DNA from: a virus
Taxonomy: Duplodnaviria; Heunggongvirae; Uroviricota; Caudoviricetes
Length of the DNA stretch: 21,500 nt
Strand: one strand, 5' to 3'
IMG/VR virus record: IMGVR_UViG_2529292759_000004
The stretch's first letter is position 1. The number at the start of each line of letters is the position of its first letter. The translations under genes and the position numbers were made by a program. The notes beneath the pieces were generated by a model that had not been told where the DNA came from, searched no databases, and saw only the letters and a list, made by a program, of their open reading frames with translations. Below are positions 18,723 through 19,664 of this stretch, piece after piece.

Positions 18723-19049
18723 ATGAAAAGACGCCTTTTACTACTTTTTCTGTTATCTGTCCTGGCAGTGGGATGCTCGCAGCAAAAAGCTGATGAGCCC
18801 CGGCAATTAGTGACGGTGTATCCACGATATCCGGAATATGCTGCAGCAAATTATATCAAGGGGCTGGTTGAGGTTAAGTTCGATATTGGTGCTGATGGGA
18901 CTGTGACACGGATCGTTTTTCTCCGCTCAGAGCCTCATAATTTGTTTCGTGATGAAGTGGTGAAGGCCATGGCGAAATGGCGATTTGAAAAGAATCGCCC
19001 CTGTCAGGGAGTGAAGAGACAATTTATCTTTACGCCGTCACGTCCTTGA
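18723..19049 (+). CDS. Putative lipoprotein with TonB-C-terminal-like domain (108 aa from MKRR...)
   Basis: Signal peptide plus lipobox (LLLLFLLSVLAVGC); C-terminal region (VKFDIGADGTVTRIVFLRSEPHNLFRDEVVKAMAKWRFE) resembles the TonB C-terminal fold; SD AGGAAT before ATG 18723. Track start 18669 is GTG. Confidence 0.55.
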   Translation: MKRRLLLLFLLSVLAVGCSQQKADEPRQLVTVYPRYPEYAAANYIKGLVEVKFDIGADGTVTRIVFLRSEPHNLFRDEVVKAMAKWRFEKNRPCQGVKRQFIFTPSRP

Positions 19050-19171
19050 TGCTTCCAGGTAGAGAGGGGCTGGAAGCAGGAGAAAAATGAAAGAGCCAGC
19101 GGTTATATTTTTGTCATGGCTGACGAGGAATGATGGAAGAAGGCGTTGTATGCCACACAACGCCTCACTGT

Positions 19172-19351
19172 TCATTTCTTCTTTTTCTCTGGTGGAACCC
19201 GATGAATAAGAGTTGCACTGGTTTCCGATGAGATGGCGATATACTCGGGCAAAGTATGCTGGCAGTTTTCCAACTGGTCAAAAATACCTGCTCTCGTCTG
19301 TTGCAATGCCTGCAGCATGCGGCGGCAATGCGCCTTGCTTTTACTAACCAT
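19172..19351 (-). CDS. Hypothetical small protein (59 aa from internal ATG)
   Basis: ATG at 19349-19351 preceded by strong SD GAGGAAGGA. The longer track ORF (to 19525) overlaps the neighbouring secreted-protein ORF and is less credible. Confidence 0.3.
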   Translation of the reverse strand: MVSKSKAHCRRMLQALQQTRAGIFDQLENCQHTLPEYIAISSETSATLIHRVPPEKKKK

Positions 19352-19412
19352 CTTTCCTTCCTCTATCAGTCGCTGCGTGAACTCATCATGGAATACCAGG
19401 TAAATGCGGATG

Positions 19413-19664
19413 TTATCGGTTTTGGCTACGCAGCATAGTACAAAACGGACAGGTGCATCCCGGGACGGGGGAGGCGTCACATGTCCCTGTGATGGTTGTT
19501 CCGGGTAATGTACTGTGTGGGGCATAAAAATGTCCGATAATTTTACTTTCTACCGCAGTTAGTTGATTCGTTGGTCCTGGTAGCACATTGGGCGAGGATT
19601 TAAATGCCAGGCAACTGAAGGATGATGTCGCAAGGGAGATAGCGAGAATATTTCTGATTTTCAT
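19413..19664 (-). CDS. Small secreted Cys-containing protein (83 aa from MKIRNIL...)
   Basis: Predicted signal peptide MKIRNILAISLATSSFSCLA; mature part has four Cys (GTCDASPVPGCTCPFC); ATG at 19662-19664. Confidence 0.45.
   Translation of the reverse strand: MKIRNILAISLATSSFSCLAFKSSPNVLPGPTNQLTAVESKIIGHFYAPHSTLPGTTITGTCDASPVPGCTCPFCTMLRSQNR

What the first reader, a model, noticed from the sequence alone, without database searches (positions are those of the whole stretch)
18723..19664. Small envelope-targeted proteins between bor and cos: TonB-C-like lipoprotein and a Cys-containing secreted peptide
Next to the known lysogenic-conversion gene bor lie a putative lipoprotein with a TonB C-terminal-like domain (18723-19049) and, on the other strand, a signal-peptide protein of about 83 aa with four Cys (GTCDASPVPGCTCPFC) plus a 59-aa ORF with a strong SD. 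This end-of-genome region is a typical moron slot, so these may be further conversion factors acting at the cell envelope.
Basis: inference. Interest (0 to 1): 0.45.

Follow-up and report, generated by a model that had tools for sequence, protein, structure and literature searches.

The report
Phage TonB decoy and zinc-family peptide
Between the bor gene and the packaging site of coliphage 21 lie two real genes for cell-envelope proteins, a lipid-anchored copy of the TonB "plug-pulling" domain and an unannotated small secreted four-cysteine protein whose relatives elsewhere carry zinc-starvation control sites, while the third proposed small gene is poorly supported.

Summary
The window's right end is 100% identical to phage 21 and to prophages in about 1,220 of 5,426 complete E. 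coli genomes, including Nissle 1917.

1. **TonB-like lipoprotein, 18723-19049 (+).** This is a real gene (dN/dS 0.12). It has a conserved lipobox with Ser at +2, followed by a gapless match to E. coli TonB residues 151-230. It has no membrane anchor and no proline-rich spacer. My inference is that it sits in the outer membrane and jams TonB-dependent transporters.

2. **83-aa ORF, 19413-19664 (-).** This is also a real gene (dN/dS 0.10-0.17 against Klebsiella, Salmonella and Citrobacter copies of the same length). It is missing from the curated phage 21 record and from RefSeq's Nissle annotation, which call an overlapping plus-strand ORF instead. It belongs to a small family with no Pfam, NCBIfam or PDB match. 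The family has a Sec signal and an invariant C-x7-C-x-C-x2-C motif. Many chromosomal members have Zur boxes 36-112 nt upstream or lie beside cobW, zur, dksA2, folE2, znuA or pliG. It therefore looks like a captured zinc-limitation periplasmic protein; what it does biochemically is unknown.

3. **59-aa ORF.** It has no diverged homologues. A 1-bp insertion breaks it in a sister lineage, and all 4 SNPs in it are nonsynonymous. It is probably not a conserved gene.

Expression in lysogens was not tested.

The parts
17949..18242 (-). bor/iss outer-membrane lipoprotein gene. Given as context; it sits as an inserted unit between Rz and a conserved block.
   Evidence: Pfam Lambda_Bor, E=1.1e-30. Annotated in phage 21 and as iss in Nissle. 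In L019-21 the conserved block 18423-18585 directly follows Rz with no bor in between.
18423..18575 (.). Conserved non-coding block shared by many lambdoid prophages. Possibly a mosaic junction.
   Evidence: It is about 90% or more conserved between phage 21, JLK-2012 and L025, whereas the TonB_C gene beside it is only ~71% identical between phage 21 and JLK-2012. It is not significantly structured. The 45-aa ORF 18568-18705 annotated in phage 21 is cut to 21 codons in JLK-2012.
18695..18703 (+). Candidate extended -10 promoter element TGTCAGAAT, 19 nt upstream of the TonB_C start codon. This is an inference.
   Evidence: It lies inside a 15-nt block ATTGTYAGAATAAGAC that is conserved in JLK-2012 (TGTTAGAAT) while the surrounding sequence diverges. 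The standard scan found no -35/-10 promoter here.
18723..19049 (+). Gene for a 108-aa lipoprotein made of a lone TonB C-terminal domain. Signal peptide 18723-18773, lipid-modified Cys18 at 18774-18776, TonB_C domain 18792-19031.
   Evidence: Pfam TonB_C, E=7.3e-13. Residues 24-103 align without gaps to E. coli TonB 151-230 in PDB 1u07, 2gsk and 2grx. Lipobox and +2 Ser/Thr/Ala (never Asp) are conserved in alleles of 85, 67-72 and 39% identity. dN/dS is 0.12.
19050..19078 (.). Hairpin immediately after the TonB_C stop codon.
   Evidence: 9-bp stem. Folded in its 51-nt context: -16.7 kcal/mol (+) and -14.3 kcal/mol (-), z = -2.2 and -3.1. No U-run follows on either strand.
19140..19166 (-). Probable intrinsic terminator of the leftward (minus-strand) transcript.
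   Evidence: 12-bp stem; -19.4 kcal/mol for the 56-nt context, z = -4.18, with 0 of 200 shuffles as stable. CUUCUUCCAUCAUU follows it. It starts 6 nt after the stop codon of the 59-aa ORF.
19172..19351 (-). 59-aa ORF with a strong SD. Doubtful as a gene.
   Evidence: Only near-identical homologues exist. A 1-bp insertion at 19334 in the L025/L026 lineage separates the SD and ATG from the ORF, and 4 of 4 SNPs are nonsynonymous. No Pfam or NCBIfam hit. The codon-usage score is coding-like, but so is the antisense frame.
19256..19438 (+). 60-aa ORF annotated in RefSeq (WP_000881610.1) and in phage 21 (CPT_21_75). Doubtful; its last 26 nt overlap the 83-aa gene.
   Evidence: Searches show the annotation. 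The same 1-bp insertion breaks it in L025/L026. It has a weak RBS. Outside E. coli, homology stops at the boundary of the 83-aa ORF.
19413..19664 (-). Gene for an 83-aa secreted four-Cys mini-protein. Signal peptide 19605-19664 with predicted cleavage Ala20|Phe21, mature peptide 19416-19604, Cys motif 19440-19481.
   Evidence: Homologues of 82-84 aa at 55-77% identity occur in Salmonella, Klebsiella and Citrobacter. dN/dS is 0.10-0.17 with third-position changes dominant. DNA homology is limited to the ORF plus 8 bp. A profile search found about 30 family representatives, with A20, F21, C62, G69, C70, C72 and C75 invariant.
19763..19777 (.). Fur-box-like 7-1-7 palindrome (CGAGAATAATTATCA on the minus strand). 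It lies between cosQ and the 83-aa gene, starting 113 nt upstream of its ATG.
   Evidence: It is the only site in the window with 2 or fewer mismatches to TGATAATnATTATCA. The palindrome is perfect in L019/L021 and in lambda, at the same distance from cosQ. Its function was not tested.
19783..19812 (.). cosQ (19783-19789) and the right genome end (cosN nick) of phage 21.
   Evidence: From the phage 21 record annotation and its end at L001 4513, which maps to window 19812.

Best explanation
This stretch holds two independent, horizontally mobile accessory genes for envelope proteins. A poorly constrained spacer separates them.

**(A) 18723-19049 (+): TonB-domain lipoprotein.**
- Shown: the protein has a conserved lipobox with Cys18 and a non-Asp +2 residue, which by the E. 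coli +2 sorting rule predicts an outer-membrane lipoprotein. After a linker of about 6 residues, the rest is only the C-terminal domain of TonB.
- Inferred: tethered to the inner face of the outer membrane, it binds the Ton boxes of TonB-dependent transporters, or native TonB itself. Because it cannot transmit energy, it uncouples or jams those transporters. That would exclude TonB-dependent phages, colicins and microcins, or protect progeny phage from binding to cell debris. This is comparable to T5 Llp and to the dominant-negative effect of periplasmic TonB fragments.

**(B) 19413-19664 (-): secreted four-Cys mini-protein.**
- Shown: this is a real but largely unannotated gene, the first one reading leftward from cos.
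- Predicted from the sequence: it is Sec-exported and cleaved after Ala20, giving a 63-aa periplasmic peptide with a short helix and an invariant C-x7-C-x-C-x2-C C-terminus.
- Shown: many chromosomal members of the family have Zur boxes just upstream or sit inside zinc-starvation gene clusters.
- Inferred: the family acts in the periplasm during zinc limitation, either handling zinc through the four Cys or, like PliG, acting as a disulfide-stabilised defensive binder. Lambdoid phages captured a copy without its Zur box.

**(C) The 59-aa minus-strand ORF and the annotated 60-aa plus-strand ORF** between the two genes are probably not conserved genes.
For: **Identity.** The region is 100% identical to phage 21 and to Nissle 1917. 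It is present in 1,224 of 5,426 complete E. coli genomes.

**(A) TonB-domain lipoprotein.**
- Pfam TonB_C, with a gapless alignment to TonB 151-230.
- The TonB aromatic residues F180, F202, W213 and F230 are kept, and Y215 becomes F. I read this off the alignment; the functional importance of these residues is from my own knowledge.
- The lipobox is conserved in every allele, down to the 39% identical Klebsiella phage copy. dN/dS is 0.12.
- In three phage types the gene always lies between the lysis genes and the terminase.
- Precedents: over-expressing the periplasmic TonB domain inhibits TonB-dependent iron import (PMC9841981, citing Howard 2001). Llp is a periplasmic outer-membrane lipoprotein that jams FhuA (PMC9586334).

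**(B) 83-aa gene.**
- Homologues of conserved length. dN/dS 0.10-0.17. Homology is limited to the ORF.
- It occupies the same cos-proximal position in a different prophage type, at 71% identity.
- Zur link:
  - The literature motif TRWNAYRWTATAWYRTNWCA (PMC6103462) gave 6 hits at 2 or fewer mismatches in 110 kb of loci. Five lie 41-112 nt upstream of family genes in five independent loci, and the sixth lies upstream of cobW.
  - The 7-1-7 core pattern adds L034, and a perfect box upstream of the Salmonella pliG-like gene that directly precedes the 83-aa homologue.
  - Neighbouring genes include cobW, FUR-family, dksA-like, GCHY-1 (folE2-type) and ZnuA-type genes.
  - The box recurs in six metagenome contigs of the P0041 type.

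**(C) The spacer ORFs.**
Against: - There are no expression data for any of these genes.
- (A) has no recognisable sigma-70 promoter by the standard scan and lies on the late-transcript strand. It may be a late lytic function rather than a lysogen function. TonB Q160 and R166, which contact transporters, are replaced by Tyr (read off the alignment). Binding to Ton boxes was not tested.
- (B): the phage copies themselves have no Zur box. The Citrobacter, Buttiauxella warmboldiae and P0031-type copies have none either.
- The Salmonella and Klebsiella associations may be accidental, because those copies look like prophage remnants: bor is adjacent in Salmonella and a cos remnant lies upstream in Klebsiella.
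- Cys4 zinc sites are unusual in the oxidising periplasm.
- The AlphaFold2 models are low-confidence (pLDDT 46.6 and 58.2), so there is no structural support.
- (C): the 59-aa ORF has a strong SD, a terminator-like hairpin just after its stop codon and coding-like codon usage. It could still be a young lineage-specific gene.
Confidence: 0.5

Rival explanations
1. The TonB-domain lipoprotein is a late lytic function, not a lysogenic-conversion factor. It would be transcribed from pR' together with the lysis genes. It would then act at or after lysis, for example by keeping progeny from adsorbing to TonB-dependent receptors on debris, as T5 Llp does, or by binding peptidoglycan or the outer membrane during envelope breakdown.
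For: It is co-oriented with the lysis cassette and sits immediately downstream of it in phage 21, JLK-2012 and a Klebsiella phage. No canonical promoter lies upstream. PHROGs files its family under 'lysis' as 'Rz-like spanin' (phrog_1267). The Llp paper lists prevention of adsorption to lysed-cell fragments as a purpose of such lipoproteins (PMC9586334).
Against: Phage 21 already has a complete Rz/Rz1 spanin pair, and the protein has a TonB_C fold rather than spanin features. A conserved candidate extended -10 lies just upstream. The phage's receptor is unknown here, because the tail genes lie outside the window.
Confidence: 0.25
2. The TonB-like ORF is an inert fragment of a host tonB gene picked up by the phage. 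Several records annotate it this way ('partial tonB-like membrane protein', 'TonB fragment').
For: Such annotations exist in phage ev017 and Perceval. The ORF covers only the last third or so of TonB.
Against: It has gained a complete lipoprotein signal peptide, which is conserved across alleles as distant as 39% identity. The ORF length is fixed at 108 aa across the two E. coli alleles, which are about 70% identical. dN/dS is 0.12 with third-position changes dominant.
Confidence: 0.04
3. The 83-aa protein does not handle zinc. It is a disulfide-knotted periplasmic binder or inhibitor that protects against a host or competitor factor met in zinc-poor, inflamed niches. The logic is the same as for the Zur-regulated lysozyme inhibitor PliG.
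For: Four invariant Cys in an oxidising compartment favour two disulfides. In Salmonella the gene lies between a pliG-like gene and bor plus an omptin gene, all of which counter host defences. It travels with bor in phage 21 as well. PliG is an accepted member of the E. coli Zur regulon (PMC6103462).
Against: No homology to any known inhibitor. The strongest genomic links are to cobW, zur, dksA2, folE2 and znuA rather than to defence genes.
Confidence: 0.2
4. The RefSeq and phage 21 annotation is right. The plus-strand ORFs (19087-19209 and 19256-19438) are the genes, and the minus-strand 83-aa ORF is spurious.
For: PGAP and the curated phage 21 record call the plus-strand ORFs. Each has its own cluster or PHROG. 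The 60-aa frame has the best codon-usage score.
Against: The 83-aa ORF alone is conserved in Salmonella, Klebsiella, Citrobacter and Buttiauxella. Homology stops at its borders and the substitution pattern is that of a coding sequence. The plus-strand ORFs have only near-identical relatives. The 60-aa ORF is frameshifted in L025/L026. The 40-aa ORF's cluster has a single member sequence, seen on two contigs.
Confidence: 0.03
5. The 59-aa ORF is a real, young, lineage-specific gene. It would be co-transcribed with the 83-aa gene and would occupy the slot that a DUF3950 (YnfO/YlcI-like) gene fills in lambda, JLK-2012 and L019-type prophages.
For: Strong SD plus ATG. No terminator lies between it and the 83-aa gene, and a strong hairpin follows 6 nt after its stop codon. 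Its codon usage is coding-like. DUF3950 genes sit at the equivalent position on the same strand in other phages. It is intact in about 1,200 genomes.
Against: No similarity to DUF3950 or any other family. There are no diverged homologues. Its start is frameshifted away in about 23 complete genomes and in a 48-aa form seen on 486 contigs. All 4 SNPs are nonsynonymous. The roughly 1,200 intact copies are 99% or more identical, so they carry little information.
Confidence: 0.3

Closest known systems
TonB of E. coli (C-terminal domain; PDB 1u07, 1xx3, 2gsk, 2grx)
   Same: Residues 24-103 align without gaps to TonB 151-230, at 38% identity over the C-terminal domain. The YP motif (Y163, P164) and the aromatic residues F180, F202, W213 and F230 are kept. 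The final beta-strand that pairs with Ton boxes is present.
   Different: There is no N-terminal transmembrane helix, so it cannot couple to ExbB/ExbD, and there is no proline-rich spacer. A lipoprotein signal peptide replaces them. Q160 and R166 become Tyr. It therefore cannot transduce energy and is not a TonB.
T5 Llp and phi80/N15 Cor (small phage outer-membrane lipoproteins that inactivate FhuA)
   Same: It is a small phage-encoded lipoprotein predicted to face the periplasm from the outer membrane. Its plausible target is the periplasmic side of TonB-dependent transporters. Llp is periplasmic and jams FhuA (PMC9586334).
   Different: No sequence relationship was found; only TonB_C and two PHROGs matched. 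The mode of binding would be generic, through Ton-box recognition, rather than receptor-specific. No exclusion phenotype has been shown.
Periplasmic TonB fragments expressed from plasmids (Howard et al. 2001, as cited in PMC9841981)
   Same: This is a soluble or tethered TonB periplasmic domain with no energy coupling. In the experiment it inhibits import through TonB-dependent transporters.
   Different: Those were laboratory constructs that included more of the periplasmic region and had no lipid anchor. This is a natural, conserved phage gene.
Zur-regulon periplasmic proteins of Enterobacteria (ZinT, PliG)
   Same: Homologues of the 83-aa protein are small Sec-exported proteins with Zur boxes in their promoters. 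In Salmonella one sits directly after a pliG-like gene that has a perfect Zur-box core.
   Different: No sequence similarity to either. It is much smaller (63-aa mature peptide) and Cys-based rather than His-based. The phage copy has no Zur box.
Bor/Iss and other lambdoid 'morons'
   Same: It is a single-gene unit on the strand opposite to late transcription. It lies in the accessory region at the end of the genome, is found in different combinations in related phages, and encodes an envelope protein.
   Different: No serum-resistance or other phenotype is known. A promoter was not identified.
DUF3950 (YnfO/YlcI) small proteins next to cos
   Same: In lambda, JLK-2012 and L019-type prophages they occupy the position and strand that the 59-aa ORF occupies here.
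   Different: The 59-aa ORF has no detectable similarity to DUF3950.

Membership tests
TonB family (energy transducer) | C-terminal TonB_C domain (PF03544) | tested here: met
   Pfam E=7.3e-13, 49.2 bits against a cutoff of 24.6. TIGR01352 E=1.8e-12. Gapless alignment to TonB 151-230.
TonB family (energy transducer) | N-terminal transmembrane anchor that couples to ExbB/ExbD | tested here: not met
   The N-terminus is a 17-residue lipoprotein signal peptide that ends in a lipobox. The full-length TonB NCBIfam models match only their C-terminal ~80 positions, at 45-69 bits against cutoffs of 265-448.
TonB family (energy transducer) | Proline-rich periplasm-spanning spacer | tested here: not met
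   Only about 6 residues (SQQKAD) lie between Cys18 and the start of the domain.
Bacterial lipoprotein (outer-membrane sorted) | Lipobox [LVI..][ASTVI..][GAS]-C after a positively charged, hydrophobic signal, with no Asp at +2 | tested here: met
   MKRR-LLLLFLLSVL-AVG-C18-S. The lipobox is conserved as VMGC-T/S and LLGC-S in other alleles. I applied the rule by eye; no LipoP or SignalP was available.
Bacterial lipoprotein (outer-membrane sorted) | Actual lipidation and outer-membrane localisation | not testable with these tools
   Needs globomycin or palmitate labelling and membrane fractionation.
Llp/Cor-type superinfection-exclusion lipoproteins | Sequence homology to Llp or Cor | tested here: not met
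   Pfam, PHROGs, NCBIfam and PADLOC returned only TonB-related hits plus phrog_1267 and phrog_34172.
Llp/Cor-type superinfection-exclusion lipoproteins | Blocks infection through a TonB-dependent receptor | not testable with these tools
   Needs plaque and colicin assays.
Sec-secreted (SPase I) protein - 83-aa ORF | n-, h- and c-regions with small residues at -3 and -1 | tested here: met
   MKIR / NILAISLATSSFS / CLA|F. Ala at -1 and Phe at +1 are invariant in 24 family members, and -3 is A, C, S or V. I applied the rule by eye.
Zur regulon (zinc-starvation genes) - 83-aa family | Zur box in the promoter region | tested here: met
   For chromosomal homologues: 5 of the 6 hits to the published E. 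coli motif in 110 kb lie 41-112 nt upstream of family genes. The 7-1-7 core matches at -36 to -107 in L016, L028, L029, L031 and L034 and in six metagenome contigs.
Zur regulon (zinc-starvation genes) - 83-aa family | Zur box upstream of the copy in this window | tested here: not met
   No match at 3 or fewer mismatches within 300 bp upstream. A Fur-like palindrome is present instead.
Zur regulon (zinc-starvation genes) - 83-aa family | Clustering with known Zur-regulon genes | tested here: met
   cobW with a FUR-family gene, dksA-like, GCHY-1, and thrS and cysS paralogues in L035/L036. cobW in L031. cobW with a FUR-family gene in L003. A ZnuA-type ABC transporter in L028. A pliG-like gene in Salmonella.
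Zur regulon (zinc-starvation genes) - 83-aa family | Zur binding and zinc-dependent repression | not testable with these tools
   Needs EMSA and reporter assays. The review stresses that boxes alone are not proof (PMC6103462).
Phage moron (autonomous accessory unit) | Present or absent between conserved flanks in related phages | tested here: met
   bor, TonB_C, the 83-aa gene and DUF3950 occur in different combinations between Rz and cos or the terminase.
Phage moron (autonomous accessory unit) | Own promoter and terminator | tested here: inconclusive
   A terminator-like hairpin lies at 19140-19166. No convincing sigma-70 promoter was found for either gene.
DUF3950 (YnfO/YlcI) - 59-aa ORF | Match to PF13132 | tested here: not met
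   No Pfam hit at E<=1.

The most novel reading that the evidence does not exclude
Phage 21-type prophages carry a small module that responds to metal starvation. Under iron or zinc limitation in the host gut, a leftward promoter next to cos would express a captured Zur-family periplasmic zinc protein. That promoter would be governed by the Fur-type palindrome conserved 6-7 nt from cosQ in lambda, phage 21 and L019-type phages. At the same time, an outer-membrane-tethered TonB C-terminal domain would re-tune or jam TonB-dependent transporters. Together they would change metal uptake and phage or colicin sensitivity in about a fifth of E. coli strains, including the probiotic Nissle 1917. It would also mean that lambda itself has an unrecognised Fur-controlled leftward transcription unit at its right end.
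Probability: 0.1. Interest if true: 0.8.

Novelty: new variant of a known kind. Interest (0 to 1): 0.55.

Why it matters
- **An overlooked gene in a classical phage.** Phage 21 is a classical model, and its right end sits in about 22% of complete E. coli genomes, including uropathogenic, avian-pathogenic and Nissle 1917 strains. One conserved gene there is missing from the curated and RefSeq annotations, which call unsupported ORFs on the other strand.
- **A new candidate in zinc-starvation biology.** The missing gene links phages to an uncharacterised protein family, not described in any paper I found and without a Pfam or NCBIfam model, that sits beside cobW, zur, dksA2, folE2 and pliG. This gives a new candidate player in bacterial zinc-starvation physiology and nutritional immunity.
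- **A possible generic way to jam transporters.** The lipid-anchored TonB domain would be a natural counterpart of laboratory dominant-negative TonB fragments. It could offer phages a generic way to jam TonB-dependent transporters, which take up siderophores, vitamin B12, colicins, microcins, many phages and siderophore-conjugated antibiotics.
- **Testability.** Both ideas can be tested directly with simple genetics in K-12.

Tried and rejected
- **Structure of the 83-aa protein.** AlphaFold2 gave pLDDT 46.6 with 13 sequences and 58.2 with 24. That is too low for a fold search, so I ran none.
- **Family and structure searches for the 83-aa family.** Pfam, NCBIfam, PHROGs, PADLOC and a PDB profile search found nothing meaningful.
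- **RNA families.** Rfam found nothing in 18200-20050. The 19120-19415 minus-strand RNA is not unusually structured (z = -0.58), so I dropped the idea of a structured sRNA or 3'UTR.
- **Promoters.** The consensus scan gave no usable promoter for either gene.
- **Codon usage.** It could not separate the 59-aa minus frame from the 60-aa plus frame.
- **L022.** This Logan contig is 88% identical across the region but is full of homopolymer indels that even break the 83-aa gene. I discarded it as assembly noise.
- **Metal boxes upstream of TonB_C.** No Fur or Zur box was found in any allele.
- **Literature.** Searches for a prophage TonB-like lipoprotein, for YnfO/YlcI/DUF3950, and for a small Cys-rich Zur-regulon protein found nothing relevant. 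Howard 2001 is not in the held library.
- **Related-locus search.** I used a degenerate DNA pattern instead.
- **Context of some loci.** Pfam on the neighbours of L016, L018 and L034 was uninformative.
- **Source organisms.** I could not determine the organisms for L028, L029, L031, L034 and L035.
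Full report
**What the window is.** Window 18300-20000 is 100% identical to the right end of coliphage 21 (OL657228.1) and to prophages in E. coli Nissle 1917, ATCC 11775 and many other strains. The 19050-19760 stretch occurs in 1,224 of 5,426 complete E. coli genomes, almost always at 99% identity or more. The whole window matches induced prophages PhiR63_2 and PhiR57_1, and ev017.

The local order is:
- S21, R21 and Rz/Rz1 on the plus strand;
- bor/iss at 17949-18242 on the minus strand;
- the finding;
- cosQ at 19783-19789, the phage 21 genome end at 19812, then terminase from 20001.

**Observation.** The published annotations read this stretch differently. The curated phage 21 record and RefSeq call the TonB-like gene, and then only plus-strand ORFs: 18568-18705, 19087-19209 and 19256-19438. 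They call nothing on the minus strand.

**The TonB-like gene (18723-19049, +).**
- It matches Pfam TonB_C (E=7.3e-13). Residues 24-103 align without a gap to E. coli TonB residues 151-230 in solved structures. Most functionally noted aromatic residues are conserved, but Q160 and R166 are replaced by Tyr.
- The N-terminus is not TonB's membrane anchor. It is a lipoprotein signal peptide (MKRRLLLLFLLSVLAVG-C18-S), and only about six residues separate the lipid-modified Cys from the domain. There is no proline-rich spacer.
- This architecture is conserved. It appears in a second E. coli allele (67-72% identical; Stx1 phages, JLK-2012, Lys8385Vzw) and in a Klebsiella phage (39% identical), always between the lysis cassette and the terminase on the late strand.
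- dN/dS between the two E. coli alleles is 0.12. It is therefore a selected gene, not the 'TonB fragment' that some records call it.
- It fails two defining features of a TonB protein, so I do not file it as one.
- *Inference, from the E. coli +2 sorting rule:* it is anchored in the inner leaflet of the outer membrane, next to the periplasmic faces of TonB-dependent transporters.
- *Mechanistic inference:* it occupies Ton boxes, or native TonB, without delivering energy. Two results make this plausible. Over-produced periplasmic TonB domain inhibits TonB-dependent import (PMC9841981, citing Howard 2001). T5 Llp is a periplasmic outer-membrane lipoprotein that jams FhuA, and that paper proposes such jamming as a general strategy of small phage lipoproteins (PMC9586334).
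- *Open question:* whether it acts in lysogens or late in infection. There is no canonical promoter. There is a 15-nt block just upstream, conserved between divergent alleles, that contains TGTCAGAAT/TGTTAGAAT, a possible extended -10.

**The 83-aa gene (19413-19664, -).**
- A protein search found homologues of 82-84 aa at 55-77% identity in Salmonella, Klebsiella, Citrobacter and a divergent Escherichia lineage. A species-level genome scan added Buttiauxella.
- Outside E. coli, DNA homology covers the ORF plus 8 bp and nothing else. Differences concentrate at third codon positions, and dN/dS is 0.10-0.17.
- The exact 83-aa product is absent from a 15-billion-protein collection. Only a 106-aa N-terminally extended call exists.
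- In another lambdoid prophage type the 71% identical gene is again the first gene reading leftward from cos, divergent from Nu1. There it is followed by a DUF3950 gene.
- A profile search of 1.8 billion representatives found only about 30 relatives. Across 24 of them the invariant positions are Ala20-Phe21 (the predicted signal-peptidase site), C62, G69, C70, C72 and C75.
- No Pfam, NCBIfam, PHROG, PADLOC or PDB relative exists. AlphaFold2 models are poor.

**The zinc link.**
- *Gene neighbourhoods.* One family member lies between a dksA-like/GCHY-1/hexapeptide/thrS-paralogue operon and cobW, a FUR-family gene and a cysS paralogue. That is the classic zinc-starvation cluster (PMC8531726, PMC2770081). 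Another lies directly after cobW, another beside a ZnuA-type ABC transporter, and the Klebsiella plasmid copy lies about 700 bp from cobW and a FUR-family gene.
- *Published motif.* I scanned 110 kb of fetched loci with the published E. coli Zur motif (PMC6103462). It gave six hits at two or fewer mismatches. Five lie 41-112 nt upstream of family genes in five independent loci, and the sixth lies upstream of cobW.
- *Core pattern.* The 7-1-7 core pattern, which I recalled from memory, gave consistent results. It also found a perfect box about 50 bp upstream of a pliG-like gene that directly precedes the Salmonella homologue.
- *Metagenomes.* Six metagenome contigs of one subtype carry the same box at -89.
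- *Exceptions.* Not all members have a box. The P0031 type, Citrobacter, B. warmboldiae and all prophage copies lack one. The Salmonella and Klebsiella cases may be prophage remnants that landed there by chance.
- *Conclusion.* The family is, in many of its chromosomal homes, a Zur-regulon periplasmic protein, and lambdoid phages captured a copy without the Zur box. I cannot decide from sequence whether the four Cys bind zinc or form two disulfides.

**Upstream of the phage copy.** A Fur-type 7-1-7 palindrome lies 6-7 nt from cosQ. It has two mismatches here and is perfect in L019/L021 and in lambda. In lambda it precedes an unannotated DUF3950 ORF. It may control leftward transcription, or it may be part of cos. 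This is unresolved.

**The spacer (19050-19412).**
- The 59-aa ORF has a strong SD and is followed by a good hairpin.
- Its only homologues are near-identical.
- A sister lineage, in complete genomes L025 and L026, carries a 1-bp insertion at 19334. The insertion breaks both the 59-aa ORF and the annotated 60-aa plus-strand ORF while the 83-aa ORF stays intact. All four SNPs in the 59-aa frame are nonsynonymous.
- Codon usage does not discriminate between the two frames.
- I rate the 59-aa ORF about 30% likely to be a real gene.

**Verdict.** Identity claims are strong. Mechanisms are inferences, at roughly 35% each for the specific mode of action. The main new points are the missed gene in a classical phage and its tie to the zinc-starvation regulon.

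Noticed in passing
window 19763-19777; L027 (lambda) about 2157-2171; L019 3866-3880: A Fur-box-type palindrome (TGATAATnATTATCA) sits 6-7 nt from cosQ in lambda (perfect), in L019-type prophages (perfect) and in phage 21 (2 mismatches). It lies upstream of whichever gene reads leftward from cos. It could be an iron-regulated operator or part of the packaging site.
   Followed up: partly
L027 1810-2004 (-), about lambda 48109-48303: Lambda's RefSeq record lacks a 64-aa ORF on the minus strand near its right end. The ORF is clearly DUF3950/YnfO-like (MSTKNRTRRTTTRNIRFPNQMIEQINIALEQKG...). Equivalent genes are annotated in JLK-2012 (PP_51) and called in L019-21.
   Followed up: partly
window 18423-18575: A block of about 150 bp is roughly 90% or more conserved between phages whose neighbouring genes are only ~70% identical, and it is found after Rz in thousands of E. 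coli prophages. It is not significantly structured. The 45-aa ORF annotated over its end in phage 21 (18568-18705) is not conserved. It may be a recombination junction.
   Followed up: partly
L006 4454-7166 (also L014, L015): Salmonella enterica subsp. salamae, diarizonae and arizonae carry an islet with a pliG-like gene (perfect Zur-box core), the 83-aa homologue, bor and an omptin. It is flanked by a serine-protease autotransporter and a NEL-type E3-ligase effector gene.
   Followed up: partly
L003 2536-5252: A 211-kb Klebsiella contig carries cobW and a FUR-family gene next to the 83-aa homologue. A recognisable remnant of a lambda-type cos site (cosN/cosQ) lies between them.
   Followed up: partly
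proteins P0045 and P0047: Two proteins of 611-627 aa are Asn/Ser/Thr-rich and look eukaryotic. They have a ubiquitin-like N-terminus and carry 4-5 repeats of P[IL]PGCNCPKCT[NE]LR, the same motif as the C-terminus of the 83-aa family.
   Followed up: no
L019 4346-4480 (+): In the other prophage type, a 44-aa ORF with a lipoprotein-like signal (VKYFALISALLLSAC...) lies between the 83-aa gene and the DUF3950 gene.
   Followed up: no
window 5080-5138 (-): Rfam match to the lambda cIII thermoregulator element (88.5 bits). The window therefore spans the early-left region, the lysis genes and the start of the head genes of an integrated prophage.
   Followed up: no
hits H1-H4: In some avian-pathogenic E. 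coli strains an IS3-family element has inserted into this same region, splitting the match into two pieces.
   Followed up: no
phrog_1267: PHROGs labels the family of the TonB-domain lipoprotein 'Rz-like spanin' (lysis). This looks like an annotation carried over from its position next to the lysis cassette, not from any spanin feature.
   Followed up: partly
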